Below, piece by piece: positions 22,975 through 56,004 of a stretch of DNA of 64,000 nt. The stretch comes from an uncultured Oscillospiraceae bacterium (lineage in GTDB: Bacteria; Bacillota; Clostridia; Saccharofermentanales; Fastidiosipilaceae). Numbering within the stretch: the first letter of the stretch is position 1; each line of letters begins with the position of its first letter. The translations under genes were made by a program, and so were the position numbers. The stretch spans positions 25,392 through 89,391 of the forward strand of contig CAYFSS010000003.1 in NCBI GenBank assembly GCA_964345975.1. Direction: 5' to 3'. The notes below the pieces were generated by a model. That model searched no databases. It saw only the letters and a program-made list of their open reading frames with translations, and had not been told where the DNA came from.

Positions 22975-24948
22975 ATGAAGAAGCTACTAGCTAGCGTACT
23001 GGTGATGGCGATGCTCGTTTCGTTTGGAATGGGTGCAGCTACTCTGGTCGCAGAAGAACTAACGTCAGCCTCAAATACGCTGACGCTCGCGTCTGCTGCG
23101 ACAGTTGAAACCATGGACTATGTCCTTTCAGCTAAGACCAGCGACCACGAAATCAATGCAAACCTCGTAGACGGATTGCTTGAGCATGATTCGTACGGCC
23201 ACCTGGTCGGCGCACTCGCTGAGAGTTGGGAACCGAATGAAGATGCAACGGTATGGACATTCCACCTCAAAGAAGATATTTGGTGGATGAACTCCAACCG
23301 TGAACCTTATGACACAGTTAAGGCTGATGACTTTGTAACAGGTCTTCGTCATGGTGCTGAGTTTGGTTCAGAGACTTCATGGCTCCTCATGGGTGTCGTT
23401 GAAGGTTATTCAGAGTATCTCGCAAGTGATTTCTCCGATGAAGCTTTCGAGTCTGTCGGTGTCAAAGCTATTGATGACCTAACCCTCGAGTACACACTCG
23501 AAGTACCGGTTCCTTATTTTGATACGATGACGACTTATACAGTCCTTTATCCGATCAACCGTGAGTTCCTCGAAGGTCGCGGCGAAGGTTGTGTCCTCGG
23601 TTCTCCTGATCAAGAAAACTGCGCATTCGGAAACCTTGAGTTCGATAACATCCTCTACAACGGTGGTTTCTATCTCACGAAGAACGACGATAAGTCCGTT
23701 ATCGAATGGGAAAAGAACGAAGACTATTGGGATGCTGAGAATGTTTACTTTGACACTGTTACCTACATCTATGATGACGGTGCAGATCCTTACTCACTCA
23801 TCAATGGTTTTGAATCCGGCACATATCCTCAGGCTGCTCTAAGAACAACTTGGGAAGATTATGACAGCTACCTCGAGAAGTACGCCGATAACGCTTACTT
23901 CCAGCTTCCTAACAACACGGTATTCGGTGTTGTGTTTAACTTCAATCGTCAGTCGTTCAATGAAACAAACTACGCTGAAGACGAAACACTCCGTCAAAAT
24001 ACTCGTGACGCTGTTCTAAATGAAAACTTCCGTAAGGCACTCCGTGCTTCATATGACATCGTTGCTGCCCTTGCCGTTTCCGCTCCGGAAGAACTGGCAG
24101 AGCAATCAACCCGCCATATCAATAACTTCCCCGGTGCCGGTACAACCTCAGACGGTCGCCTCTATCATGACCTTGTCAACGCTGCTTACACAGAGATGAC
24201 AGGTGAAGAAGTTGACCTCAATGATGGTGGTTCAGTCTGGCTCAGCAAAGAAGATGCTCTTGCGTACATCGAAGCTGCAAAGGAAGACGGAATTGAATTC
24301 CCTGTTCACCTCGATATGCTCGTCCCCGAAACTTCTGACAGTCTCGTAAAGCGTGCACAGTCCATGAAGAAGTCTATTGAAGACAACACGGATGGTCAGA
24401 TCGTCCTCGAACTCGTCATGCGTAGCATGGATACCGTTCAGAACATCGCTTACCGTGAAACCGATCCTGCAAAGATGGATTACGATATTTCAACCTTCAC
24501 CGGTTGGGGTCCTGACTATGGTGATCCTAAGTCCTTTGTTGATATCTGGTCAGCTACCACCGGTTACTACATGGCTTCTTCCGGTCTCGGTACCACGCTC
24601 GTCGATGCAGATGGTGAAGAAGTCATCGTCGATGAAGAAATCAAAGAGATCGTCGGTCTCATGGAGTACGAACAGTTCTACCGTGAAGCTGATGCAATCA
24701 CCGATGATATGGATCTTCGCTATGAAACCTTCGCCAAGGCTGATGCTAAGCTGATCGAGAAAGCATTCTATATCCCGACAAGCCAGCAGACCCGTGGTCA
24801 GGTTGTTTCCTACTATGTTCCGTTCTCTAACATCTATGCCGACTACGGTGTTTCAGATCTTAAGTTCAAGGGTATCCGTCTCCAAGAAGAGATCGTAACT
24901 GTTGAGCAAAGAGATGCAGCAACCGAAGATTGGTACAGTAAGCGCTAA
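22975..24948 (+). CDS. oppA: ABC peptide/oligopeptide substrate-binding protein (family 5)
   Basis: 657 aa. N-terminal signal peptide MKKLLASVLVMAMLVSFGMGAATLVA has no Cys. It heads the oppBCDF genes. RBS GGAGG. Confidence 0.85.
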   Translation: MKKLLASVLVMAMLVSFGMGAATLVAEELTSASNTLTLASAATVETMDYVLSAKTSDHEINANLVDGLLEHDSYGHLVGALAESWEPNEDATVWTFHLKEDIWWMNSNREPYDTVKADDFVTGLRHGAEFGSETSWLLMGVVEGYSEYLASDFSDEAFESVGVKAIDDLTLEYTLEVPVPYFDTMTTYTVLYPINREFLEGRGEGCVLGSPDQENCAFGNLEFDNILYNGGFYLTKNDDKSVIEWEKNEDYWDAENVYFDTVTYIYDDGADPYSLINGFESGTYPQAALRTTWEDYDSYLEKYADNAYFQLPNNTVFGVVFNFNRQSFNETNYAEDETLRQNTRDAVLNENFRKALRASYDIVAALAVSAPEELAEQSTRHINNFPGAGTTSDGRLYHDLVNAAYTEMTGEEVDLNDGGSVWLSKEDALAYIEAAKEDGIEFPVHLDMLVPETSDSLVKRAQSMKKSIEDNTDGQIVLELVMRSMDTVQNIAYRETDPAKMDYDISTFTGWGPDYGDPKSFVDIWSATTGYYMASSGLGTTLVDADGEEVIVDEEIKEIVGLMEYEQFYREADAITDDMDLRYETFAKADAKLIEKAFYIPTSQQTRGQVVSYYVPFSNIYADYGVSDLKFKGIRLQEEIVTVEQRDAATEDWYSKR

Positions 24949-24983
24949 TTTCGTTGTAAAAACTTAGCGCGGATTTCAAAAAG

Positions 24984-25013
24984 CGGGGTTGGCGTTTCGC
25001 CAGCCCCGTTTCT
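24984..25013 (+). terminator. Rho-independent terminator/attenuator after oppA
   Basis: An 11-bp GC-rich stem, CGGGGTTGGCG-TTT-CGCCAGCCCCG, is followed by TTTCT. Confidence 0.7.
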
Positions 25014-25085
25014 ATGGTATTTTAGATAGTGATTCTTTCTTCTAGCTCTATTTTATCCGCGTTGTAGTTGAGGAGTGTTTAGTCT

Positions 25086-26576
25086 ATGGGCAGGTATATT
25101 CTTGTAAGAATACTGAAATCGCTTTTGTCCATCGCAATCGTCGTATCGGTGGTTGTCGTTATGGTGTACAAATTAGTTCCTACGTCGAAAGTTTTTGAGA
25201 ATGACGAGGGATATCGTAAACTCAAAGCGAATCAGAAATACGTTTATAGTTTGAGTAAACTCGAGAATCTCGGCTATCTCGACTACCTTACTGCAGGTGA
25301 GATGTTTGCGAATGAGTCCGAAGCTTCATTTCAAGATCACAGACCCGGTGATGAAGAATACGATCGTGTTCTCCAGGTATACCGTGATAAAGGCTACACA
25401 GTCGAAGAATTGACGCAGAACGATGATCTCCGCGGTACTTGGATTGCCTATCGTTATTACAATGTCTTTGAGCTCATCGGAGGCTTTTTCTCGCGACTCA
25501 TCGTTATTGATAACCCCAACGCCATTCAGGACCCAAATAATCCCGATATGGAGAGAGGTTATAGTTGGGAGAAAGATCATAACGGTAATTACGCACTTAC
25601 CTGTGAAGGTTGCACGAACCTGTACCAGATCTATTTCAACAATAAATTCCCTTTCATTCACCAGAATGCTGTAAAGCTGTACTTCGGTGAATCTTATCCG
25701 ACGCATTCCGGTGTCCATACCATGGACGTCATCAGTCGCGGACAAGGGCGTACAGTACGCGTCGAACAAACGTTCCCAACCGGCGAAGTACTGGAAATTC
25801 CTATTGATCAGCACACGCGACAATACAAGTTCCAACCGGATCGTTTGGATGTCAATAAGTATGGTGATAGCCATTATGCAACGACAGGAAGTTTCTACGA
25901 ATCACCCTCAATGATCGGGACCTCGTATATCTTCGGCATTCTGTCATTGATCTTAGCGTATTTGTTCGCTTTGCCGGCAGGTCTAGCCATGGCGCGTAAG
26001 AAGGGTTTGTGGGTCGATAAGATTGGTATTGCATACATCAACTTGATCTTGGCGTTGCCATCGCTGGCACTCATCTTCTTCATTAAATATGCAGGCTTTG
26101 GTTTCGGACTTCCTGATAAGTTCCCTGAATTGGGTTTCAATAATATCAAGTCTTATATCATGCCCCTATTGGCTTTAACGATCATGAATACCCCAGGAAT
26201 TATGATGTGGATCCGTCGCTATATGGTTGACCAAGAAAGTGCGGACTACGTCAAGTTTGCAAGATCTAAGGGCTTGACCGATAAAGAGATTTCAAAGCGT
26301 CATATCCTGAAGAATGCCATTATTCCGATCATTAATGGTCTACCGTCATCGGTCATTCTGGCTATTAGTGGAGCTATCGTCACGGAGTCAATGTTTGCCG
26401 TTCCGGGCATGGGTAAGATGTTGCCTGATGCGATCAATGGAGCCAATAACAATATGGTCATTACCCTGACCTTCATCTTTACGTCGCTAGCGGTCTTCTC
26501 TGTATTCCTTGGTGACCTACTCATGACCGTCGTCGATCCTCGAATCTCGCTTGATATCAAGGAAGGAGTACGCTAA
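25086..26576 (+). CDS. oppB: Oligopeptide ABC permease OppB with an enlarged first external loop
   Basis: 496 aa. TM1 is followed by about 245 aa of hydrophilic sequence, then the canonical permease core with the EAA-type loop VKFARSKGLTDKEISKRHILKNAIIPIING. Confidence 0.85.
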   Translation: MGRYILVRILKSLLSIAIVVSVVVVMVYKLVPTSKVFENDEGYRKLKANQKYVYSLSKLENLGYLDYLTAGEMFANESEASFQDHRPGDEEYDRVLQVYRDKGYTVEELTQNDDLRGTWIAYRYYNVFELIGGFFSRLIVIDNPNAIQDPNNPDMERGYSWEKDHNGNYALTCEGCTNLYQIYFNNKFPFIHQNAVKLYFGESYPTHSGVHTMDVISRGQGRTVRVEQTFPTGEVLEIPIDQHTRQYKFQPDRLDVNKYGDSHYATTGSFYESPSMIGTSYIFGILSLILAYLFALPAGLAMARKKGLWVDKIGIAYINLILALPSLALIFFIKYAGFGFGLPDKFPELGFNNIKSYIMPLLALTIMNTPGIMMWIRRYMVDQESADYVKFARSKGLTDKEISKRHILKNAIIPIINGLPSSVILAISGAIVTESMFAVPGMGKMLPDAINGANNNMVITLTFIFTSLAVFSVFLGDLLMTVVDPRISLDIKEGVR

Positions 26577-26578
26577 AC

Positions 26579-27598
26579 ATGACAAATACGAATTATCCAG
26601 GACCTGTGGGGATGCAAGGTGAACCTAAAGGTATCGTCAAACATGACCCGGCTAATGTCCCTGAAATAGATCCGGCAATCGAAAAAGAAATGTTTGAAGC
26701 TGCGGAATTTGATGCTACTGCTTCAGAGCATATATCGACTCCCGTGTATTCTTATTGGCAGAGCGTCAGACGCCGCTTCTTCCAGTCTAAAATTGCTATC
26801 CTCATGTTGATTGTCTTTGCGGTCATTGTCTTAATGTCGCTCATCCATCCTGAGATCTCGGGCTATGATCACATGAATGCGGAACACATTAACGATAAGT
26901 CTCAGTGGTTCTTGCGTCCTTCCGTTGACCATCCTTTCGGGACGGACGATATTGGCCGAGACATGTTCTCACTCGTATGGGCAGGAGCTCGCACCAGTCT
27001 CTTTATTTCCTTCACGGCTACGATCATCACCGTCGTAATCGGTGTTTTGGTAGGTATGTGGTGGGGCTTTTCTAAGCGAGTCGACGCCATCATGATCGAG
27101 GTCTACAACGTTGTTTCCAACATACCGTTCACCTTAATCGTCATGATCTTGAGCTTTGCCCTTGGAGGCGGTGTTTGGCAATTGATCTTTGCCCTATCGT
27201 GTACGTCATGGGTAGGAACAGCCTACTTTGTCCGAGTCCAGGTTATGATCCGTCGCGATCGAGAGTACAACCTAGCTTCGAAGTGTCTTGGATCTTCAAA
27301 CTGGACAATTATCAAGAACAATATTTTCCCTTATCTTATCTCCGTCCTTGTCACCGTTATTTCTCGTAATGTCCCGTCCTTTATCTCGTATGAGGTCTTC
27401 CTAAGTTTCATCGGTGTTGGACTTTCCGAGAGAATTGCTTCCTTGGGTCGCGTGGTTCAAACGAGCTCCAAGCACATGCAGTCTGCGCCATACCTCTTCA
27501 TCATCCCGCTCACGGTAACTGCGCTTATTTCAATCTCGCTCTACTTGATTGGTCAGACACTCGCCGATGCAAGTGATCCGCGCAATCACATGCTGTAG
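26579..27598 (+). CDS. oppC: Oligopeptide ABC permease OppC
   Basis: Motif HPFGTDDIGRDMFSLVWAGARTSL and EAA-type loop ASKCLGSSNWTIIKNNIFPYL. Confidence 0.9.
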   Translation: MTNTNYPGPVGMQGEPKGIVKHDPANVPEIDPAIEKEMFEAAEFDATASEHISTPVYSYWQSVRRRFFQSKIAILMLIVFAVIVLMSLIHPEISGYDHMNAEHINDKSQWFLRPSVDHPFGTDDIGRDMFSLVWAGARTSLFISFTATIITVVIGVLVGMWWGFSKRVDAIMIEVYNVVSNIPFTLIVMILSFALGGGVWQLIFALSCTSWVGTAYFVRVQVMIRRDREYNLASKCLGSSNWTIIKNNIFPYLISVLVTVISRNVPSFISYEVFLSFIGVGLSERIASLGRVVQTSSKHMQSAPYLFIIPLTVTALISISLYLIGQTLADASDPRNHML

Positions 27599-27609
27599 GG
27601 AGGACTTCT

Positions 27610-28689
27610 ATGACACAACTCAATCAAGATAAATATATTCTTCAAGTTAAAGACCTCGAGGTTAAATTCCAGGTCCGAGACAGGGAGCTTACAGCTATTC
27701 GCAATGTTTCCATGGACTTCGAACGCAACAAGGTTGTTGCTATTGTCGGTGAATCCGGCTCCGGTAAATCAGTCTTTACAAAGACCTTCTCCGGTATGCT
27801 CGATAACAATGGTCGAGTATCAAACGGTGAAATCTGGTTTGAAGGTCAGAACTTAGCTAATCTGAAGCGTAACAAAGATTGGTTACCCATCCGTGGTAAG
27901 AAAATTGCAACCATTTTCCAGGACCCGCTGACTTCACTGAATCCTGTACGCACCATCGGTTATCAGATATCTGAAGTTATCGTGAAGCACCAAGGCAAGA
28001 GCAAGGGTGAAGCGAAAGAAATGGCGATCGACCTCATGCGTCGTGTCGGCCTAAGCAAGCCTGAACAACGTTACAATGAGTATCCCTTCCAATATTCCGG
28101 CGGTATGCGCCAACGTATTGTCATCGCCATCGCCTTGGCTTGTCGTCCTAAGATCCTTATTTGTGACGAGCCCACGACTGCGCTTGATGTAACAACGCAG
28201 GCTCAAATCATTGCCCTTATCAAGGAACTCGGTGAAGAGTACGGCTTCACAACGATCTACATCACGCATGACTTGGGAGTTGTTGCGAATGTCGCCGATA
28301 TTGTAGCCGTCATGTACGGTGGTCAGATCATCGAATACGGGACCGTTGAAGAGATCTTCTATGACCCACGACATCCTTATACATGGGGGCTCCTCTCGTC
28401 GTTACCTCAACTTGGTAATCCTCACGAGCCGCTGTATGCAATTCCGGGTACGCCACCATCTCTGTTTGAGAAGATCTCAGGTGACAGCTTCGCACCCCGA
28501 AGTGAGCATGCTTTGAAGATTGACTTCGAAGAGGAACCGCCAATGTTCCAAGTCTCCGACACACACTTTGCAAAGACTTGGCTCTTGGATCCGCGTGCAC
28601 CGAAGGTTGAGAAGCCTGTTATCATCCGTGATCTCCACGAGAAGTTAAAATATCTGAGTTCGCAGGGAGGAGTTTATAGTGATATCTAA
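27610..28689 (+). CDS. oppD: Oligopeptide ABC ATP-binding protein OppD
   Basis: Walker A GESGSGKS, signature YSGGMRQR, Walker [13 protein letters not shown]-loop ITHDL and oligo C-terminal motif HPYTWGLL. Confidence 0.93.
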
Positions 28690-29656
28690 GAATGAAGAAC
28701 GCGAGGTCCTCCTCGAAGTCAATAATCTCAACGTCACGTTTGAAGCCGGCAAGAAGATTGTCGAAGCCGTCAAAGATGCCAGCTTCAAGATCTACCGTGG
28801 TGAAACGTTCGCCCTCGTCGGTGAATCAGGCTCCGGTAAGACAACGATTGGGCGGTCGATCATTCGTCTGAATTCAACGCAAGGTGGAGATATCATCTTC
28901 AAGGGTAAGAAGATCAACAAGAATCTTTCCAAATCTGAAGCTCGCCAACTCGTGCGTGAGGTGCAAATGATATTCCAAGATCCTGCTGCTTCACTCAACG
29001 AGCGTGTTACGGTTGACCACTGTGTCGCTGAGGGTATCGATAATTTCCATCTCTATGAAAACAAGGAGGATCGTGCAAGGAAGGTCGATGAGACCTTGGA
29101 GGCAGTGGGTCTTCTCCCGGAGCATAAGTCTCGTTATCCTCACGAGTTCTCCGGGGGTCAGCGTCAGCGTATCGGGATCGCTAGGGCGATTATCATGGAA
29201 CCGGAATTTATCATCGCTGATGAGCCTATTTCCGCACTTGATGTTTCCATTCGCGCCCAGGTCATGAACCTCTTGAATACGTTCAAAGAAGAGCGTGGCT
29301 TGACCTATCTCTTCATCGCCCATGACCTTTCCGTCGTGCGTTATTTCTCCGATCGGATCGCTGTTATTCGTGAAGGTGAGATTGTTGAGGTCGCTGAGAC
29401 CGATGAACTCTTTGCCCATCCACTCCATCCTTATACGCTCTCACTCTTGCAGTCAGTCCCGGTTCCGGATCCTCAGATTGAGAAGTCTAAGAGTCTCATT
29501 ACCTATGAACCGAAGGTCTACGGTCCGAATGAGACATTAGAACTACAGGAAGTCGTCCCGGGTCATTATGTTTATTGCACGAAGGACGAGCTCACTCACT
29601 ATCATGAGCGCTACGAACGTCTCCAACAATCTCGTATTTCTAACCCCATCTATTAG
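28679..29656 (+). CDS. oppF: Oligopeptide ABC ATP-binding protein OppF
   Basis: Walker [10 protein letters not shown], signature FSGGQRQR, Walker [13 protein letters not shown]-loop IAHDL and [11 protein letters not shown] start after GGGAGGAG. Confidence 0.93.
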
Positions 29657-44168: not shown

Positions 44169-44408
44169 ATGACGAATCAAGAAATTCTCGATCGTATGGC
44201 TGAGATCCTCGTTGATCAGCTTGGGGTTGATGAAGACGAAGTGACAATGGATGCTAATTTCATTGAAGATCTCAATGCCGACTCGCTTGATATTGTCGAA
44301 CTTGTGATGAATCTAGAACAAGAATTCGACCTTATGATCCCCGATGAAGAAGCAGAGAATATCAGGACAGTCGGAGACGCTGTTAACTTCATCCAAGAGA
44401 ATCTTTAA
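44169..44408 (+). CDS. acpP: Acyl carrier protein
   Basis: 79 aa with the phosphopantetheine attachment motif [21 protein letters not shown]. Confidence 0.95.
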
Positions 44409-44434
44409 GCTACATTATTTAGATATTTGAGAAG

Positions 44435-44470
44435 CGCAAGACTGATCCATCGAGAGGTCTTGCGTTTTTT
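44435..44470 (+). terminator. Rho-independent terminator after acpP
   Basis: CGCAAGAC-N14-GTCTTGCG followed by TTTTTT at 44465-44470. Confidence 0.8.
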
Positions 44471-44534
44471 ATGCTTGACTGCGGTAAAATAGAGGATAGT
44501 TATAGGCTTACTCGTTACCTGTTGGAGGTGTACG

Positions 44535-46058
44535 ATGTCGAAAAAACTGCCTGACAAGAAAAACAAAGGCAATGTAAGTGATGACGGACTACAAGCGTTG
44601 GACGTTCACCGTGTAAGTTCAGTAGATGATTCTACCGAGTCGGAGTTCTTGGAAGAAGATATGTCTGACGATGAAGCGTTCAAGCCTACGGATCGGGTTG
44701 AAATTAGAACCATTGAAGCGGACGAGGTTGCGGGAGCAAACGATGAGTCCGAATCTGAGATAGAGACTATAGATGAGCAAATCGATGAGTCCGACAACGG
44801 TCAGACCCTTGATGATGTTGAAGAACCTGATTCATTAAGCGCCGTGAATATAGAATCTGCGATTGAGTCGAGTGAGGATTCTCTCTCAGCTATGACGCAA
44901 GAAGATGAAGAATCTGAGGGGATGACCACGATCGAATCCACAGAAGTCATCTATCAGGAAGGTGATCAAGTCATCAAAGAGTCTGTGGACGTTGTCACTG
45001 TGGCATCGGTTGATGAAATACCGCAGGAAAGCGAACAAGAGGATCTGACAGCATCCGATGATATAGGGGTTGTACACGACGCCGAGTATACGGAGAACGA
45101 AGAAGCCGTCTCTGAAGAAGAGGCCTCGGACATTGAAGATGATGTAGCAGAGGATGGGGTGCAAGTTATTGCAAAGTATCCCTATGGTCTTACATCAAAA
45201 CCTCGCGTAACCGCGGGTCTTCGCAATGTTCTCTTAGTCTTATTTGTTCTTTGGATTGGGTTTGTGTTTGTAGCGCCCTTTATCTTACCCCAAGGCCTGG
45301 ATACCCCCAACTTAGACCTCCTAACAGGTGAGCATTTACTTGGCACTGACAGTGTCGGTAGAGACGTTTTGTCGACGACTTTGAAGGCGGGTAGGACTTC
45401 GCTGATTTATGCTCTAATCCCGACCCTTATCGGTTTGTTTGGAATTCTTTTGACTTATAGGAATTGGAGTGATCCATCTTCCACATATTCAAGAGCCTAC
45501 CTCATGCGCCCAATGCCATTCACGGTTATTAGCATCATCGCCTCATTTGCAATGGGCTTATTCTTGCCTCGCACATGGGTTTATTTCATCATCGTAGCTT
45601 TCTTATCACTTGTCTTGTGGTTGCGTGAGGCATTTGCTGTTGCTCATTATATAAAAGCCTATAGACAGGCTCGTCCTAATCAATTTAGTTACTATTTGGG
45701 AGCTCGAGAGTTAGATAACATTCGCTATACCTATGGGCAAGAAGTGCGTGCAGCTTTCTTAAACGGAGTTCTCAATGTCTTCTTAAGGGCTTATCTCATC
45801 ATTAGTGTTTTACCCTTTACCGATAACAGTCTATCGGTGCCACAGCGTGCGGATTGGGCCAGTCATATCATCTTGCCTCTGCGACAAGGGGTAAGCATCT
45901 TAGATCCAAATGTGCTGCCACATTTTATTGGTTGGGCGATACCATTGGTTTTGGTCATTCTTATCATTCTCCTAAATCTCAGAGTAGCTAGGCGACAGAA
46001 GGTTCTATCGACCATGCGAATGCGAGCTAATCACTGGCGCGCCGGAGATGAGGTCTAA
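44535..46058 (+). CDS. Divergent OppC/DppC-like ABC permease-fold membrane protein with a roughly 215-aa polyacidic N-terminal extension; function unknown
   Basis: Strong RBS GGAGGTG. Residues 1-215 are rich in D, E and S. TM1 is LLVLFVLWIGFVFVAPFIL, followed by the OppC hallmark HLLGTDSVGRDVLSTTLKAGRTSL. Compare OppC in this window, HPFGTDDIGRDMFSLVWAGARTSL. Five or so further hydrophobic segments and a degenerate EAA-type loop follow. Confidence 0.75.
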   Translation: MSKKLPDKKNKGNVSDDGLQALDVHRVSSVDDSTESEFLEEDMSDDEAFKPTDRVEIRTIEADEVAGANDESESEIETIDEQIDESDNGQTLDDVEEPDSLSAVNIESAIESSEDSLSAMTQEDEESEGMTTIESTEVIYQEGDQVIKESVDVVTVASVDEIPQESEQEDLTASDDIGVVHDAEYTENEEAVSEEEASDIEDDVAEDGVQVIAKYPYGLTSKPRVTAGLRNVLLVLFVLWIGFVFVAPFILPQGLDTPNLDLLTGEHLLGTDSVGRDVLSTTLKAGRTSLIYALIPTLIGLFGILLTYRNWSDPSSTYSRAYLMRPMPFTVISIIASFAMGLFLPRTWVYFIIVAFLSLVLWLREAFAVAHYIKAYRQARPNQFSYYLGARELDNIRYTYGQEVRAAFLNGVLNVFLRAYLIISVLPFTDNSLSVPQRADWASHIILPLRQGVSILDPNVLPHFIGWAIPLVLVILIILLNLRVARRQKVLSTMRMRANHWRAGDEV

Positions 46059-47594
46059 ATGGCAAAATTTAAGTATGAGGATTTCATTCTTCGATTTACC
46101 AATCTAAAGTATGAGTCACATGACCCTGACGTTACCGGATTAGCGGATTTCTTTTTAGGCATTCGCTACGGTGAGTCTTTAGGCCTAACGTCGGAAACCA
46201 ATTCCGGCAGTGATACAGTCCGTGACATGCTCTTTGGCACTATAAAAGCCGACCAAGGACAGATCATGTACTACGGGCGCAGCATCGATGAAGTTGCTCC
46301 CATTTATATGCGTGAGAATTACCGTAATTTGCGTCGTGAACGCAACCGCTTAGGTCGTATTCAGGAAAAAAGAAACCGGTTGGAAGCAGAATTGCAGGCG
46401 GCCGGGAATAATGTAAGCGATGATCTCCGGCAAGCCGTGGAAAATGCCAGAGGGGCTTTTTTAGCACAATATTTCAATTTTGTGCAATTGCAAGGTGGCT
46501 TTGTTCAACTCGATGAACCCGATATTTTAGCGCCTTATTACAGCAAACGATACGACTTAGCCCTCGAATATAGGGACGTCGTAGCTGAGATTGAAGAGGC
46601 GGACGCGCTCTATCGAGATCTCCAAGCCGAGCGAACGGAGCAAGAGGATAATCCGCGCTTGGATCAGCGTATGTTTGAATTATCCGAGGAAATGGATGAA
46701 CTGCAATCTGAGCTTGTCGAGATCCAGTGGGAGCTTGAGGAAATCCTGGGCCTTATTCATAGCTGGAAGGAGCCATATCTTCATTCAGAAGAATTCTTGC
46801 GTCATGAACGTGAACTCGATGAGTCGATAAGTTTATTTCGTTTGACGCATGAAGAAAGAAGACATCTTTTCAGAGATCTACAGTATGTGCCTTCTTTCAG
46901 CCCCGATTTGTTTGACCCGGATCAGACCTTCGAAGAAGTACTTCAGGCCGGTTTGGTTTATCAAGGCCTGTTCAAAGCAGGGAAAGCATCGACTAAAGCG
47001 TATTTGCAGCAGATCCTTCAGATGCTCGATATGAAGGCTGAAGACTTGCAAAGACCTATAACGACTGCAACGAATTATGAAGCTTTCCGTTTATTGCTTG
47101 GGAGAAGTTTAGCCCTTCACCCGAAGCTCATTTATCTCGATGAACCGCTTCGTCATCTTTCGGAAGCCGATCGGGAAGCTGCCTATGAATTAATTTTGGA
47201 TCTTAGAGAAAATCGTGATTTGACCTTAATCATTGCTTCACAAGATGTGAAGACGCTTGCCGTCCTTACGGATCGTTGCGCTGTGCTATGCGAAGGGCAT
47301 CTTGTAGAGCTCTACAATACTCAATCGCTCATTGCGGCACCCTTTCATCCTTATACCGCTGCGCTGCTTGCCTCACACCCTGAGATGAACGGTCAAGAAG
47401 CGTGGACGAAGTTCCGTTTGAAGACCGATGAGGGTGACGGTTTGGATTTCCTATCGGAGGCTTGTCCTTTCAGTCCTCGCTGCCTCTATAGAGGGGAACT
47501 TTGTGTGCGAAATCCAGAACTCACGATGGCCGGGAGCGGTCATTTCTATGCCTGCCATTACCCGCTGTATGGACAAGGCCCGCAACGCGTCTAG
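46059..47594 (+). CDS. Degenerate OppD/F-like ABC nucleotide-binding-domain protein (predicted pseudo-ATPase) with a charged helical insertion and a C-terminal 4-Cys motif
   Basis: The ATG abuts the upstream TAA (46056-46061). It aligns by eye with OppF in this window: ILRFTNL...YGESLGLTSETNSGSDTV against LLEVNNL...[18 protein letters not shown]. Walker B is retained (KLIYLDEP). The signature is replaced (ATNYE) and the H-loop is ASQD. The C-terminus has PFHPYTAALL and CPFSPRCLYRGELC...YAC. Confidence 0.8.
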   Translation: MAKFKYEDFILRFTNLKYESHDPDVTGLADFFLGIRYGESLGLTSETNSGSDTVRDMLFGTIKADQGQIMYYGRSIDEVAPIYMRENYRNLRRERNRLGRIQEKRNRLEAELQAAGNNVSDDLRQAVENARGAFLAQYFNFVQLQGGFVQLDEPDILAPYYSKRYDLALEYRDVVAEIEEADALYRDLQAERTEQEDNPRLDQRMFELSEEMDELQSELVEIQWELEEILGLIHSWKEPYLHSEEFLRHERELDESISLFRLTHEERRHLFRDLQYVPSFSPDLFDPDQTFEEVLQAGLVYQGLFKAGKASTKAYLQQILQMLDMKAEDLQRPITTATNYEAFRLLLGRSLALHPKLIYLDEPLRHLSEADREAAYELILDLRENRDLTLIIASQDVKTLAVLTDRCAVLCEGHLVELYNTQSLIAAPFHPYTAALLASHPEMNGQEAWTKFRLKTDEGDGLDFLSEACPFSPRCLYRGELCVRNPELTMAGSGHFYACHYPLYGQGPQRV

Positions 47595-47608
47595 GGTTTA
47601 ATACGCAT

Positions 47609-47655
47609 CTATATTGTGTTTCACTTGGCTTAGGCGAGTGGAATATAGTTATTTT
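47609..47655 (+). terminator. Weak candidate terminator after the ABC-like pair
   Basis: AT-rich stem CTATATT...AATATAG with inner CACT/AGTG, followed by TTATTTT. Confidence 0.35.
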
Positions 47656-47803
47656 GCGCTCTTGTGATATGTTGATCATGAAGTCATTGGAATTTCGGTC
47701 TGACGTCGTCTGACGCTTGTTTGCTTTAGTATGACTTCGTCTGATGGTAACCCTCCTGCCTTATCTGCTTATTAGTTTATTGATACCCAAGAAAGGTGAA
47801 TTG

Positions 47804-48532
47804 ATGCAAAGAACGTTGCCCGAACAAATCCTGGCACCTCATTATGTCTTTCGTGATCTGTCGTTACTGCAAGAAGCACTGACGCATAGTTCTTGGGCTA
47901 ATGAACACCCGCCGACCCGTGACAATGAACGCTTGGAATTTTTGGGGGACGCCATTCTACAATTTCTTGCAACGGAAGCGCTTTATCTTGCTGATAATCA
48001 ATCTTCTGAAGGGCAAATGACAAGCCTCCGACAACTGATTGTGCGTGAAGAAGCTTTAGCTGCGGCAGCGGTGCGCTTGAATCTCGGCTCTCATCTATAC
48101 CTTGGTCAAGGTGAAATTGCCGGAGGAGGCTCGGCTAAGAGTTCTAATCTTGCAGATGCTTTTGAAGCCTTGCTTGCAGCGGTGTTTCTCGATGCGGAGA
48201 CAGCAGATGGAGCAGGTTTAGCTGCGGCTCGCCTGATCGCAAAACTTAGCTTAAAGCAAACCCTGGATGATGCTAGAGCAGGGAAGATTGTTGCAAATTA
48301 CAAATCTCAGTTTCTCGAATGGGTTCAAGAATTTCCTGACCGCAAACCTGTCACGTATAAGCTCGTTAAGCGAGAAGGTCCGGCGCATGAACCGATCTTC
48401 CATATGGTTCTTGAGATTGGGGACTATGTTGTAGCAAGGGCTCAGGCTTCGAGCAAGAAGCAAGCAGAACAAGCATTGAGTGAAATTGCTTGGAAGAAGC
48501 GAGCCGAGCTTGAGGAGGTTATCAAAGCGTGA
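47804..48532 (+). CDS. rnc: Ribonuclease III
   Basis: RNase III signature ERLEFLGDAIL and a C-terminal dsRBD (KSQFLEWVQ...GPAHEPIF). The ATG at 47804 follows GAAAGGTG; the ORF is open from 47744. Confidence 0.93.
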   Translation: MQRTLPEQILAPHYVFRDLSLLQEALTHSSWANEHPPTRDNERLEFLGDAILQFLATEALYLADNQSSEGQMTSLRQLIVREEALAAAAVRLNLGSHLYLGQGEIAGGGSAKSSNLADAFEALLAAVFLDAETADGAGLAAARLIAKLSLKQTLDDARAGKIVANYKSQFLEWVQEFPDRKPVTYKLVKREGPAHEPIFHMVLEIGDYVVARAQASSKKQAEQALSEIAWKKRAELEEVIKA

Positions 48533-55030: not shown

Positions 55031-55549
55031 ATGTCAGTAAAGATTCGTTTAAAACGCATTGGTATGAAGCGCGCACCTCATTATCGTATCGTAGTATCGG
55101 ATGCACGCTCCCCGAGAGATGGCCGATTCATCGAAGAGTTAGGTATTTATAACCCTAAGGACACACCCATTAAGCTTAAAATCGATCTTGAGCGTGCTGA
55201 AGAGTGGATTGCTAACGGAGCACAGCCAACAGACACGGTTCGTAGACTAATGAAGCGCTTTTCAGAAATGTCTGATGAAGAACGTGAAGCCAGTTCCGGT
55301 TTATCGAAGCCTGCATCTTCCAAACCTGTGACGCTTGAGTCAAAGAAGAATGCTAAGCCTGTTAAAATTAAAGAAGCTACAACTAAAGAAGAGTCTAAAG
55401 TTACCCCTGAGGTAGAGGTAACAGAGGAAGCTGTTGAAGACGTTGTGGCAGAGCCTGAAGTGGAAGCTGAGGCACCATCTGCTGAAGAAGCTCCCGCTGA
55501 GGAAGTAACCGCTGATACTACTGAAAAAGAAACAGAGGAGCCCGCATGA
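55031..55549 (+). CDS. rpsP: 30S ribosomal protein S16 with a roughly 85-aa K/E/A-rich C-terminal extension
   Basis: N-terminus [42 protein letters not shown]. Total length is 172 aa. Confidence 0.95.
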
Positions 55550-56004
55550 GTACTGAGATTAACAAGGAACAGGGCATTCGCGAGATGAAAGAATTGCTCG
55601 AGGTTATGTCTCGAGCCCTTGTGGATGAGCCGGATCGCGTCGAAGTAAACCCCATTGATACAGGTGAGCGTATTGTTCTCGAACTTCGCGTCGCTGACGA
55701 AGATATGGGACGCGTCATTGGTAAGGGCGGACGAAGAGCACAGGCTATGCGTTCGATCATCAAGGCCAAGGCTACTCGTGTCGGTCTTCGTTCAGCCGTC
55801 GATATCATCGACCGTGAAGAGGATCAAGCTAAGTCTGACTATGTAGAGACCTCTGAAGATGAGTACGAAGATTCGTATGATGAAGAATTCGAAGAGTATG
55901 AAGAAGACGATGACTTCGATTACGACGATGATGACGAAGACGATTATGAGTATTCCGATGACGAAGACTTTGACTACGTCGACGACGATGAAGACTTCGC
56001 TTAA
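55546..56004 (+). CDS. khpA: KH-domain RNA-binding protein (KhpA/YlqC) with a D/E/Y-rich C-terminal tail
   Basis: KH GXXG motif [15 protein letters not shown], at the conserved position after rpsP. Total length is 152 aa, of which about 70 aa is polyacidic tail. Confidence 0.85.

What the first reader, a model, noticed from the sequence alone, without database searches (positions are those of the whole stretch)
44409..47803. An orphan two-gene ABC-derived unit is inserted at the normally invariant acpP|rnc junction
From acpP to rnhB the window otherwise follows the B. subtilis order acpA-rnc-smc-ftsY-ylxM-ffh-rpsP-ylqC-rimM-trmD-rplS-ylqF-rnhB, apart from the missing ylqD. In that order rnc directly follows acpA. 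Here 3060 nt carrying two ORFs (44535-46058 and 46059-47594) lie between them. A strong terminator follows acpP at 44435-44470. Gene 1 has a strong RBS (GGAGGTG), and the two ORFs are translationally coupled (TAA then ATG, no gap). A weak hairpin plus a 209-nt gap precedes rnc. The unit supplies only one OppC-type membrane domain and one OppD/F-type NBD. It has no OppB-type partner, no second NBD and no binding protein, and the NBD looks catalytically dead. That composition cannot form a canonical Opp/Dpp importer. I see three possibilities. It could be a repurposed ABC scaffold with a signalling, structural or mechanotransmission role, analogous in logic to FtsEX, which E. coli encodes next to ftsY. 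It could provide alternative or regulatory subunits that heteromerise with the bona fide Opp system at 22975-29656. Or it could be a decaying relic, although two long intact coupled ORFs argue against decay.
Basis: partly seen in the sequence, partly recalled or inferred. Interest (0 to 1): 0.85.

Follow-up and report, generated by a model that had tools for sequence, protein, structure and literature searches.

The report
Catalytically dead OppC–OppF gene pair
A small clade of uncultured Clostridia carries, wedged between the housekeeping genes acpP and rnc, a well-conserved gene pair that descends from one half (OppC permease plus OppF ATPase) of a peptide ABC importer. The pair has lost every ATP-hydrolysis motif, so it is probably a repurposed, non-pumping membrane complex of unknown role.

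Summary
ORFs 44535-46058 (507 aa) and 46059-47594 (511 aa) abut as TAA|ATG between a strong acpP terminator and rnc.

Gene 1 has a ~220-aa polyacidic disordered tail followed by a six-TM OppC-type domain. Gene 2 is an OppF-type NBD. It has lost the Walker A lysine, Q-loop, LSGGQ signature, D-loop and H-loop. It keeps Walker B, the NBD fold and the [4Fe-4S] cysteine tetrad of DppF/OppD.

Its ~185-aa four-helix insertion is not new. Intact "long-OppF" proteins in ordinary oppABCDF operons carry the same insertion.

The pair occurs at the same locus in four further contigs. There gene 2 is 85-88% identical although synonymous sites are saturated, and its pN is no higher than that of rnc or smc. 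The nearest outgroups have acpP directly followed by rnc. No other member appeared among 1.8 billion cluster representatives or in pattern scans of the GTDB species genomes.

The pair is therefore a selected, lineage-specific insertion and not a relic. OppC and OppF are physical partners, so this is one cognate half-transporter turned pseudo-ATPase. Its function is untested, and the FtsEX analogy has no support. I class it as a new variant of a known kind, of moderate interest.

The parts
44428..44471 (+). Intrinsic terminator of acpP (16-bp interrupted stem plus U-run). It marks the upstream edge of the insertion.
   Evidence: RNA fold -23.8 kcal/mol, z = -5.3. The stem is conserved in L001 and the loop varies. 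The outgroups also have a terminator after acpP.
44472..44534 (+). Conserved leader of gene 1. It contains a TTGACT hexamer (44475-44480), the invariant block GCTTGACTGCGGTAAAATAG, and the RBS GGAGGTG (44525-44531).
   Evidence: The region aligned (44400-44540, which also takes in the acpP stop and terminator) is 90% identical between window and L001, although synonymous sites of the flanking genes are saturated. No canonical -10 lies at 16-18 nt, so the promoter assignment is unresolved.
44535..45197 (+). Gene 1, residues 1-221: a cytoplasmic, polyacidic, intrinsically disordered tail. Only a short N-terminal motif (MSxKxP...GN...VxRVxS) is conserved.
   Evidence: D+E is 32-38% and net charge -60 to -74 in all four homologues. 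AF2 pLDDT is mostly below 50 in this region (blocks of 33-57). pN is 0.40-0.45, so the sequence is free to vary while composition and length are kept.
45198..46058 (+). Gene 1, residues 222-507: a six-TM OppC-type membrane domain. It has the GTDxxGRD extracytoplasmic loop, an altered EAA/coupling loop with a 7-residue insert, and a basic C-terminal tail (MRMRxNxWRAGDE).
   Evidence: hhalign gives 98.6% probability, E 1.3e-15, to OppC over TM1 to the EAA loop. NCBIfam hits are all OppC/NikC/DppC types. Six hydrophobic segments follow the positive-inside rule. pN is 0.14-0.18. It matches E. coli OppC (8z21_B) by sequence.
46033..46061 (+). Translational-coupling junction, GCCGGAGAYGAGGNNTAAATG. 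The Shine-Dalgarno sequence for gene 2 lies inside the last codons of gene 1, and the stop and start codons abut.
   Evidence: The arrangement is the same in the window and in L001-L004.
46059..46289 (+). Gene 2, residues 1-77: the N-terminal beta-subdomain of the NBD, with a degenerate P-loop. SETNSGSD (residues 45-52, nt 46191-46214) replaces GESGSGKS/T.
   Evidence: Alignment with the resident OppD and OppF. This is among the best-conserved segments of the protein, with pN 0.063-0.077. The model has strands at 9-18, 28-36, 40-44 and 66-71.
46290..46844 (+). Gene 2, residues 78-262: a helical insertion between the beta-subdomain and the former Q-loop. It has four long helices (83-115, 121-146, 158-194, 199-241) and a conserved GG turn.
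   Evidence: AF2 model with pLDDT about 90 in the helices. The insertion is absent from the resident OppD and OppF. It aligns end to end with intact long-OppF P0263. pN is 0.08-0.11.
46845..47300 (+). Gene 2, residues 263-414: the helical subdomain and RecA-like core. The Q-loop is lost (VPSFSP), the signature LSGGQ is replaced by ATNYE, Walker B LIYLDEP is kept, the D-loop changes from ALD to HLS, and the H-loop changes from H to Q.
   Evidence: Alignment. These residues are invariant among the four family members. pLDDT is 92-96.
47301..47594 (+). Gene 2, residues 415-511: the oligo_HPY C-terminal domain with the HPYT motif and the Cys tetrad C469/C475/C482/C499 (nt 47463-47555).
   Evidence: Pfam PF08352 scores 44 bits. 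The Cys spacing 6/7/17 is identical to the [4Fe-4S] ligands C293/C299/C306/C323 of E. coli DppF (PMC12136057). The cysteines align with those of the C-terminal domains of Mtb OppD and E. coli OppD, which the literature describes as cluster-binding. All four are invariant in the family.
47613..47649 (+). Hairpin followed by a partly U-rich tract after gene 2. It overlaps a promoter-like TTCACT-18-TATAGT. It is either a weak terminator or an element of the rnc leader.
   Evidence: z = -3.1 for the 86-nt segment 47595-47680 that contains it. The hairpin itself is not conserved in the relatives, but a following motif GCGTTaTTGTGCGCTC is shared by L001, L003 and L004.
47804..48532 (+). rnc (RNase III), the downstream boundary gene. 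It is context only and not part of the unit.
   Evidence: Pfam Ribonuclease_3 plus dsrm. The conserved start was identified by comparison with L001-L003.

Best explanation
The two genes encode a lineage-specific pseudo-transporter. It consists of an OppC-derived six-TM protein and its cognate OppF-derived nucleotide-binding subunit, both descended from a 'long-OppF' type peptide importer. The pair was inserted between the acpP terminator and the rnc promoter in the ancestor of a narrow clade of uncultured Clostridia, and it has been inherited vertically since.

Shown:
- The NBD has lost the Walker A Lys/Ser, the Q-loop Gln, the LSGGQ signature, the D-loop Asp and the H-loop His. It is nevertheless constrained as tightly as rnc or smc.
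- The fold, Walker B, the helical insertion and the four [4Fe-4S] cysteines are kept.
- The two genes are always adjacent and translationally coupled.

Inferred:
- The two proteins still dock through the co-diverged EAA loop and NBD groove.
- They assemble into a membrane complex, most simply a (C'F')2 homodimer of halves. By analogy with DppBCDF, where the cluster is required for assembly and oxidation dissociates the complex, stability of this complex would depend on the Fe-S domain.
- The complex no longer hydrolyses ATP or pumps peptides. It acts instead as a structural, regulatory or sensing module.
- In that module the four-helix arm of the NBD and the ~220-residue polyanionic tail of the TMD are the working surfaces facing the cytoplasm.
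- Redox or Fe-S status is the most plausible input. The output partner is unknown.
For: - Homology and architecture.
- Structure: the AF2 model of gene 2 has mean pLDDT 79, and its best Foldseek hits are E. coli OppF, DppF and OppD, with PhnK also high.
- Motif loss. The lost motifs are invariant within the family.
- Selection: gene 2 pN is 0.075-0.097 in every region, against 0.11-0.13 for rnc, 0.13 for smc and 0.09 for pgsA, with pS saturated. The gene 1 TMD has pN 0.14-0.18.
- Conserved synteny and junction in five loci.
- Absence in the nearest outgroups, which have otherwise identical synteny.
- Host-like GC and codon use, and no flanking repeats.
- Origin from long-OppF: end-to-end alignment including the insertion (27% identity, 13 gaps). 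Intact long-OppF sits in a complete oppABCDF operon. An NJ tree on the NBD core places gene 2 on the OppF side.
- C pairs with F in solved translocators. Cys-to-Ser mutation or oxidation of the cluster dissociates DppBCDF (PMC12136057).
- The gene 2 Cys tetrad has the same spacing as in DppF, whereas the resident OppD and OppF of this genome lack those cysteines.
- Both sides of the predicted coupling interface have diverged from consensus yet are invariant within the family. In gene 1 the EAA loop carries a 7-aa insert. In gene 2 the segment DLQYVPSFSP replaces DLQIIFQDPY.
Against: - There is no experimental or expression evidence at all, and the organism is uncultured.
- No multimer model could be run, so neither C'-F' docking nor homodimerisation is demonstrated.
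- The AF2 model of gene 1 is poor (pLDDT 48).
- PepT-family TMDs are, in all solved cases, B/C heterodimers and not C/C homodimers.
- Retention of the Walker B Asp-Glu is unexplained if nucleotide is never bound.
- The acidic tail may be a lineage habit and not a functional surface, because S16 and KhpA in the same clade also carry acidic tails.
- The family is known from only about five near-identical lineages, so conservation reflects a short evolutionary span.
- Only 64 kb of the genome was visible, so partner genes elsewhere cannot be excluded.
Confidence: 0.45

Rival explanations
1. Alternative or regulatory half. The gene 1/gene 2 half replaces OppC/OppF next to the resident OppB/OppD (22975-29656), or next to the B/D half of another Opp system encoded outside the window. 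The resulting hybrid translocator has both composite ATP sites crippled. It would act as a dominant-negative brake, as a receptor for a binding protein, or as a signalling variant of the peptide importer.
For: - The pair supplies exactly the C and F subunits and lacks B, D and A.
- C-F and B-D are the physical halves in DppBCDF.
- A complete and apparently active Opp operon lies 15 kb upstream.
- Solved PepT translocators are B/C heterodimers.
Against: - Gene 2 is only 19-25% identical to the resident OppD and OppF, and it derives from a different Opp subfamily that carries the insertion and the Fe-S cysteines. The resident NBDs have neither.
- The EAA loop and Q-loop regions of the pair have diverged together away from consensus, which suggests an exclusive partnership.
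- In a hybrid, both ATP sites would contain a dead half. That gives only an inhibitor, which is an odd thing to keep under selection as strong as on housekeeping genes.
- There is no genetic linkage to the opp operon.
Confidence: 0.2
2. Still a transporter or channel. The OppC-like domain conducts a solute, either without ATP as a facilitator or gated pore, or with nucleotide bound in a non-canonical way. The NBD would act as a gate or regulator rather than a motor.
For: - The six-TM domain, the extracytoplasmic GTDxxGRD loop and Walker B Asp-Glu are conserved.
- The degenerate P-loop region is among the best-conserved parts of gene 2 (pN 0.06-0.08), which could mean that the pocket binds some ligand.
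Against: - As far as I know, no P-loop ATPase works without the Walker A lysine. Here K is replaced by S and S/T by D, and the signature, Q-, D- and H-loops are lost as well.
- There is no binding-protein gene nearby.
- Similarity to OppC fades after the EAA loop, so the TM5-TM6 part of the pathway has been remodelled.
- I know of no precedent for a type I importer TMD acting as a passive channel.
Confidence: 0.12
3. Decaying relic. These are remnants of a once complete opp operon, on their way to pseudogenisation.
For: - Catalytic motifs are lost and the B, D and A partners are absent.
- Phylogenetic distribution is very narrow.
Against: - Both ORFs are intact in every contig that covers them: gene 2 in all five loci and gene 1 in the three where it is complete. 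Synonymous sites are saturated (pS about 0.75) while gene 2 pN is 0.075-0.097, no higher than rnc or smc.
- The degenerate motifs themselves are invariant.
- The coupled TAA|ATG junction, the RBS and the leader are conserved.
Confidence: 0.03

Closest known systems
OppC-OppF / DppC-DppF half of PepT-family (Opp/Dpp/Nik) type I ABC importers, e.g. E. coli OppBCDF (PDB 8z21) and DppBCDF (8z1v-8z1y)
   Same: - OppC-type six-TM domain with the GTDxxGRD loop and an EAA-loop remnant.
- OppF-type NBD fold (target-normalised TM-score 0.80-0.86).
- oligo_HPY C-terminal domain with a Cys tetrad of identical spacing to the DppF [4Fe-4S] ligands.
- C and F are the physically paired subunits.
   Different: - No OppB, OppD or OppA.
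- Walker A Lys/Ser, Q-loop, LSGGQ, D-loop and H-loop are all replaced.
- A ~220-aa polyacidic tail on the TMD and a ~185-aa helical insertion in the NBD.
- Scores lie far below every NCBIfam equivalog cutoff (for example 90 against 627 bits).
- Genomic position is inside a housekeeping cluster and not in a transport operon.
'Long-OppF' subfamily: uncharacterised OppF proteins of 445-536 aa with a helical insertion after the YYGxxxxExAPxY motif. They are found in complete oppABCDF operons of Firmicute-type metagenomic genomes (P0263, P0264, P0291, P0336, P0359; one relative is annotated Lachnospiraceae).
   Same: - Same insertion at the same site, alignable end to end (27% identity over 478 aa with 13 gaps).
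- Same GG turn.
- Same C-terminal Cys tetrad.
   Different: - Members have intact GESGxGKS, FSGGQ and SHD motifs and sit after oppA-B-C-D. A 66-73-aa tail-anchored membrane ORF follows them.
- The window protein has lost the motifs, follows an OppC-like gene directly, and has no small ORF after it.
- P0280 is a second degenerate member (Walker B E to Q, signature lost), but its contigs are too short to show context.
PhnK/PhnL of the C-P lyase complex (PDB 7z15-7z19)
   Same: These are Opp-type NBDs that have left transport and dock on a non-transporter partner. PhnK is among the best structural matches (target-normalised TM-score 0.83-0.90).
   Different: - As I recall the literature, PhnK and PhnL keep functional ATP sites and bind a soluble enzyme core.
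- They have no partner TMD, no helical insertion and no oligo_HPY/Fe-S domain.
- Here a TMD partner is retained and the ATP site is destroyed.
Degenerate nucleotide-binding sites of heterodimeric ABC transporters (e.g. TM287/288, reviewed in PMC7756269, which I listed but did not read)
   Same: Catalytic residues in an NBD are lost while the protein remains functional and under selection.
   Different: - In those systems only one of the two composite sites is degenerate, it still binds ATP, and the other site drives transport (my own knowledge).
- In gene 2 both contributions, the Walker A side and the signature side, are degenerate. No competent site can form in a homodimer or with any partner.
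FtsEX
   Same: An ABC-derived membrane complex used for something other than transport. In E. coli it is encoded next to ftsY.
   Different: - As I recall the literature, FtsE is an active ATPase with intact motifs.
- FtsX has a four-TM fold of the MacB/LolC type, unrelated to OppC.
- The pair here is separated from ftsY by rnc and smc, and no FtsE or FtsX family appeared in the displayed top NCBIfam hits (best 25 of 154 for gene 2).

Membership tests
PepT-family (Opp/Dpp/Nik) ABC ATPase subunit, OppD/OppF type | ABC_tran (PF00005) domain followed by an oligo_HPY (PF08352) C-terminal domain | tested here: met
   PF00005 scores 35.3 bits (cutoff 25). PF08352 scores 44.3 bits (cutoff 27.1). TIGR01727 oligo_HPY scores 54 bits (cutoff 37.6).
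PepT-family (Opp/Dpp/Nik) ABC ATPase subunit, OppD/OppF type | NBD three-dimensional fold matching solved OppD/OppF/DppF | tested here: met
   The AF2 model has pLDDT 79. Foldseek hits 8z21_D (OppF) at E 7.5e-19 with target-normalised TM-score 0.80, and 4fwi at 0.86.
PepT-family (Opp/Dpp/Nik) ABC ATPase subunit, OppD/OppF type | Catalytic motifs: Walker A GxxGxGK[ST], Q-loop Gln, signature LSGGQ, Walker B hhhhDE, D-loop SALD, H-loop His | tested here: not met
   Walker A is SETNSGSD, the Q-loop is VPSFSP, the signature is ATNYE, the D-loop is HLS, and the H-loop is SQD. Only Walker B (LIYLDEP) is kept.
PepT-family (Opp/Dpp/Nik) ABC ATPase subunit, OppD/OppF type | Score above the cutoff of any NCBIfam equivalog (OppD, OppF, DppD, DppF, NikE, SapD ...) | tested here: not met
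   The best hit is SapD at 90 bits against a cutoff of 627. OppF scores 70 against 540.
PepT-family (Opp/Dpp/Nik) ABC ATPase subunit, OppD/OppF type | [4Fe-4S]-binding Cys tetrad in the C-terminal domain (C-x5-C-x6-C-x16-C), present in many but not all members | tested here: met
   C469/C475/C482/C499 have spacing 6/7/17, identical to DppF C293/C299/C306/C323. They align with the cysteines of the C-terminal domains of Mtb OppD and E. coli OppD. Actual cluster binding is not testable with these tools.
OppC-type permease (BPD_transp_1 superfamily, OppC/DppC/NikC branch) | Pfam BPD_transp_1 (PF00528) and OppC_N (PF12911) above threshold | tested here: not met
   Neither family is reported at E <= 1 for gene 1. 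The resident OppC scores 76 and 40 bits.
OppC-type permease (BPD_transp_1 superfamily, OppC/DppC/NikC branch) | Detectable homology to OppC-type rather than OppB-type TMDs, including the GTDxxGRD loop | tested here: met
   hhalign gives 98.6%, E 1.3e-15, over 154 columns from TM1 to the EAA loop. All 12 NCBIfam hits are C-type permeases. BLASTP gives E 7e-5 to the L011 OppC and no match to the L011 OppB. H267, G270, T271, D272, G275, R276 and D277 are invariant.
OppC-type permease (BPD_transp_1 superfamily, OppC/DppC/NikC branch) | Six TM helices, N-in/C-in, with an EAA coupling loop between TM4 and TM5 | tested here: inconclusive
   Six hydrophobic segments have a positive-inside charge distribution. 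The EAA loop keeps R377 and G389 but carries a 7-residue insert and lacks the HILPN tail. The AF2 model is too poor to confirm the fold (pLDDT 48).
Complete binding-protein-dependent ABC importer | Two TMDs, two ATP-competent NBDs and a substrate-binding protein encoded together | tested here: not met
   Only one TMD gene and one dead NBD gene lie between acpP and rnc in all five loci. Partners elsewhere in the genome cannot be excluded, because only the 64-kb window was visible.
'Long-OppF' subfamily (helical insertion after the beta-subdomain) | An insertion of ~120-200 aa at the YYGxxxxExAPxY site, alignable with other members, with a GG turn | tested here: met
   Single-stretch profile matches cover positions 24-33 to 438-505 in P0263, P0264, P0280, P0291, P0336 and P0359. 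The end-to-end BLASTP alignment is and the motif comparison.
'Long-OppF' subfamily (helical insertion after the beta-subdomain) | Context as the last ATPase gene of an oppABCDF operon with intact motifs | tested here: not met
   L011 shows OppA-OppB-OppC-OppD-long OppF. The window pair has a different context and dead motifs.
FtsEX | FtsE ATPase with intact motifs plus FtsX four-TM permease (FtsX/MacB-type fold) | tested here: not met
   No FtsE or FtsX family appears in the Pfam results or among the displayed NCBIfam top hits. The TMD is OppC-type and the motifs are dead.

The most novel reading that the evidence does not exclude
The pair is a true pseudo-ABC machine: an ATP-independent membrane scaffold or sensor that is assembled, or gated, through its [4Fe-4S] cluster. 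Its four-helix arm and tethered polyanionic tail recruit or sequester cytoplasmic partners at the membrane in response to redox or iron-sulfur status. Given the locus, the partners might be basic nucleic-acid-binding proteins of the neighbouring RNA-processing, chromosome or SRP functions. That would be the first case of a type I importer half turned wholly into a non-transport signalling device.
Probability: 0.12. Interest if true: 0.75.

Novelty: new variant of a known kind. Interest (0 to 1): 0.45.

Why it matters
Fully dead NBDs held under strong purifying selection are rare in bacterial ABC importers. This case is clean and shows which parts of the machine are kept when the motor is discarded: the fold, Walker B, the Fe-S domain, the TMD partner and the helical arm. 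That makes it a useful natural experiment on what the Fe-S domain and the uncharacterised long-OppF insertion do independently of ATP hydrolysis.

It also shows that the conserved acpP-rnc-smc-ftsY cluster can accept and fix a foreign operon.

The importance is limited for three reasons. The family is confined to a handful of closely related uncultured Clostridia. Nothing links it functionally to its neighbours. No phenotype can yet be predicted.

Tried and rejected
- GTDB genome scans with gene 2 patterns (MAKFKYE, DFILRFTN) and gene 1 patterns (LMRPMPFT, WVYF[IV]IVA) found no relative. The taxon therefore had to be inferred from Ffh neighbours. Named hits are only 62-67% identical and are labelled Clostridia, Clostridiaceae, Eubacteriales or Fastidiosipilaceae MAGs.
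- The JGI metagenome scan returned only ordinary Opp ATPases.
- The AF2 model of gene 1 built from a 10-sequence alignment was too poor to use (pLDDT 48), so I ran no fold search on it.
The window comes from an unnamed 112-kb NCBI contig.
- The contexts of P0263 and P0280 were too short to be informative.
- Mobile-element origin: no flanking direct or inverted repeats beyond chance-size matches, no compositional anomaly, and host-like codon use.
- Defence-system origin: only weak generic ABC/SMC-like PADLOC hits.
- Riboswitch or known RNA in the leader or the rnc gap: the only Rfam hit in the window is one tRNA.
- A sigma-70 promoter for gene 1: the scan found none in the leader. A conserved TTGACT has no -10 at 16-18 nt.
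- dN/dS proper could not be computed because dS is saturated, so I used pN compared with neighbouring housekeeping genes instead.
- Literature searches for OppF insertions or fully inactive ABC importer NBDs found nothing relevant.
- A proteome-wide acidic shift as the explanation for the tail was rejected. Orthologues have similar pI in the outgroup, and only S16, KhpA and gene 1 carry tails.

Full report

Yes. On the + strand, acpP (44169-44408) is followed by a strong intrinsic terminator. Its interrupted 16-bp stem and U-run fold at -23.8 kcal/mol, with z = -5.3 against shuffles.

A 63-nt leader follows and ends in the RBS GGAGGTG. Then come ORF 44535-46058 (507 aa) and ORF 46059-47594 (511 aa), whose stop and start codons abut as TAA|ATG.

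After gene 2 there is a hairpin at 47613-47649 and a 209-nt gap before the conserved rnc start at 47804. GC content and codon usage match the surrounding genes. There are no flanking repeats.

**2. What are the two proteins?**

*Gene 1* has two parts.
- Residues 1-~221 are predicted to be disordered and are extremely acidic. D+E is 32% and net charge is -60 in the window protein. The three homologues have D+E of 37-38% and net charge of -69 to -74.
- Residues ~222-507 contain six hydrophobic segments with a positive-inside charge pattern.
- A profile of the family aligns with OppC-type permeases at 98.6% probability (E 1.3e-15), from TM1 through the invariant H-x2-GTD-x2-GRD extracytoplasmic loop to the EAA coupling loop.
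- Every NCBIfam hit is a C-type permease (Opp4C, NikC, DppC, GsiD, OppC). It matches the OppC of a long-OppF operon but not that operon's OppB.
- Pfam's BPD_transp_1 model does not reach threshold. Similarity fades after the EAA loop, which itself carries a 7-residue insert.

*Gene 2* passes the Pfam thresholds for ABC_tran and oligo_HPY. Its AF2 model (pLDDT 79) superposes best on E. coli OppF, DppF and OppD, with PhnK also among the top hits.

Alignment with the resident, clearly active OppD and OppF of this window shows what has been lost:

| Motif | Canonical | Gene 2 |
|---|---|---|
| Walker A | GESGSGKS/T | SETNSGSD |
| Q-loop | IFQDP | VPSFSP |
| Signature | (Y/F)SGG(M/Q) in the resident OppD/OppF (consensus LSGGQ) | ATNYE |
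| D-loop | ALD | HLS |
| H-loop | H | Q |
| Walker B | hhhhDE | LIYLDEP (kept) |

- About 185 residues (78-262) are inserted between the beta-subdomain and the former Q-loop. They are modelled as four long helices.
- The C-terminal domain keeps four cysteines (469, 475, 482, 499). Their 6/7/17 spacing is identical to the [4Fe-4S] ligands of E. coli DppF. They also align with the cysteines of the C-terminal domains of Mtb OppD and E. coli OppD, which the literature describes as cluster-binding.
- The resident OppD and OppF lack these cysteines.

**3. Distribution and selection**

- Among 5.8 billion clustered proteins only four clusters resemble each protein. For gene 2 they are 85-88% identical to the window protein. 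For gene 1 the other three clusters are 53-56% identical.
- An exhaustive HMMER search of 1.84 billion cluster representatives found, beyond the family's own representative, only one 136-aa fragment at family-level score.
- Two pattern scans of 185,579 GTDB species genomes and one scan of JGI metagenomes found no member.
- In every contig that carries gene 2, the arrangement is (acpP)-gene 1-gene 2-rnc-smc, with the same GCCGGAGAYGAGGNNTAAATG junction.
- Ffh places the organism among uncultured Clostridia, and the nearest named relatives are only 62-67% identical.
- Three such outgroup contigs have the same recA-recX-miaB-pgsA-acpP-rnc-smc-ftsY-ylxM-ffh order, but acpP, its terminator and a TGnTACAAT promoter-like sequence are followed directly by rnc.
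- The pair is therefore a clade-specific insertion between the acpP terminator and the rnc promoter.

Synonymous differences between the window and L001-L003 are saturated (pS about 0.75). The non-synonymous proportions (pN) are:

| Gene or region | pN |
|---|---|
| Gene 2, all four regions including the dead P-loop and the insertion | 0.075-0.097 (individual regions 0.063-0.117) |
| rnc | 0.11-0.13 |
| smc | 0.13 |
| pgsA | 0.09 |
| Gene 1 membrane domain | 0.14-0.18 |
| Gene 1 acidic tail | 0.40-0.45 |

The acidic tail keeps its length and charge even though its sequence varies. These figures rule out a decaying relic.

**4. Where did it come from?**

The representative search also returned proteins of 445-536 aa that match the family profile in one stretch across the insertion. 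Most of them have intact GESGxGKS, FSGGQ and SHD motifs and the same Cys tetrad. They share the YYGxxxxExAPxY entry motif and the GG turn of the insertion.

Gene 2 aligns with one of them (P0263) end to end, at 27% identity over 478 residues with 13 gaps.

One such protein (P0359) is the last gene of a complete oppA-oppB-oppC-oppD-oppF operon. Another (P0264) sits next to an SBP gene. An NJ tree built on the NBD core alone puts gene 2 on the OppF side of the tree, on a very long branch.

The helical insertion is thus an inherited feature of an uncharacterised "long-OppF" subfamily and not an invention of this pair. The pair is not a duplicate of the resident opp operon.

In the solved E. coli DppBCDF structure, DppB contacts DppD and DppC contacts DppF (PMC12136057). 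The window therefore encodes exactly one cognate TMD-NBD half.

**5. How it most likely works**

Shown:
- A cognate OppC'/OppF' pair is always co-encoded and translationally coupled.
- The ATPase motifs are destroyed on both the Walker A side and the signature side.
- Purifying selection acts on the whole of gene 2 and on the membrane domain of gene 1.
- The Fe-S cysteines are retained.

Established for relatives:
- The [4Fe-4S] domains are required for assembly of DppBCDF and MtbOppABCD.
- Oxidation or Cys-to-Ser mutation dissociates the complex (PMC12136057).

Inferred:
- The two proteins still dock. Both sides of the coupling interface have diverged from consensus yet are invariant within the family.
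- They form a membrane complex that cannot hydrolyse ATP, because no competent composite site can form with itself or with any partner.
- The complex has been retained for a non-pumping role, in which the helical arm and the tethered polyanion face the cytoplasm.
- Its stability may report Fe-S or redox status.

I put about 0.45 on this self-contained pseudo-transporter reading.

Rivals:
- **Hybrid with the resident OppB/OppD half (0.2).** This is attractive because solved PepT translocators are B/C heterodimers. It is weakened by the different subfamily origin, the co-diverged interface and the lack of linkage to the opp operon.
- **Residual ATP-independent transport or gating (0.12).**
- **Relic (0.03).**

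The remaining probability is "something else". None of these readings can be separated further without multimer modelling or biochemistry.

**6. Comparison with known systems**

The pair is homologous to OppC and OppF but fails the functional definition of an ABC importer subunit. The catalytic motifs are not met, NCBIfam equivalog cutoffs are missed by five-fold or more, and there is no B, D or A partner.

The nearest conceptual relatives are the following.
- **PhnK/PhnL.** These are Opp-type NBDs redeployed on C-P lyase, but as I recall the literature they are still ATP-competent.
- **Degenerate sites of heterodimeric exporters.** To my knowledge only one site is degenerate there, and it still binds ATP.
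- **FtsEX.** The analogy does not hold in fold, in motif status or in gene adjacency.

**7. Verdict**

This is a new variant of a known kind. It is a tidy example of a bacterial pseudo-ATPase half-transporter, confined to a very narrow uncultured clade, with no functional clue beyond the Fe-S domain. I rate its interest at about 0.45.

Noticed in passing
window 55031-55549 and 55546-56004; L001 14368-14865 and 14862-15317: Ribosomal protein S16 (172 aa) and the KH protein KhpA/YlqC (152 aa) carry hyper-acidic C-terminal tails of ~90 and ~70 aa. The KhpA tail is almost pure D/E/Y. In the outgroup L005 the same proteins are 81 and 76 aa and basic. Together with the -60 tail of gene 1, this clade seems prone to appending polyacidic disordered tails. 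There is no general proteome-wide acidic shift.
   Followed up: partly
L008 1859-2080; L011 10589-10798; L012 2418-2618: Each intact long-OppF gene examined is followed immediately by a 66-73-aa ORF with a charged N-terminal half and a C-terminal TM helix. Two of them share EKGDVxALIIAA. This may be an unannotated accessory subunit of long-OppF transporters. No equivalent ORF follows gene 2 in the window.
   Followed up: partly
P0280 (L009 246-1583, L010 238-1575): A second degenerate long-OppF. Walker A is intact, but the Q-loop and signature are lost, Walker B changes from DE to DQ, the H-loop changes from H to D, and the protein is truncated before the Cys tetrad. It groups near gene 2 in a crude NJ tree, possibly through long-branch attraction. 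The contigs are too short to show neighbours.
   Followed up: partly
window 44472-44534 vs L001 3889-3951: The gene 1 leader is nearly invariant between lineages whose synonymous sites are saturated, including a 20-nt block GCTTGACTGCGGTAAAATAG. No canonical -10 lies at the right spacing and there is no Rfam match. It could be an unusual promoter or operator, or a small regulatory RNA element.
   Followed up: partly
window 47650-47665; L001 ~7075-7092; L003/L004 upstream of rnc: A motif GCGTT(A/C)TTGTGCGCTC (TTATTTTGCGCTC in the window), preceded by a hairpin, recurs upstream of rnc in the clade. It might be an rnc leader element, for example an RNase III autoregulatory stem.
   Followed up: no
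window 47744-48532: The rnc open frame extends to an ATG at 47744 (262 aa, as some pipelines call it). The RBS AAAGGTGA and the relatives' starts support 47804 (242 aa).
   Followed up: yes
window 25086-26576 and 22975-24948: The resident OppB is 496 aa, and its BPD_transp_1 domain covers only residues 295-488, which is ~170 aa longer than usual. OppA is 657 aa. The resident OppD and OppF lack the Fe-S cysteine tetrad that gene 2 retains.
   Followed up: partly
L011 6027-7967: The OppC of the intact long-OppF operon is 646 aa and carries an RCC1/WD40-like beta-propeller insertion in its extracytoplasmic loop. That is an unusual decoration for an ABC permease.
   Followed up: no
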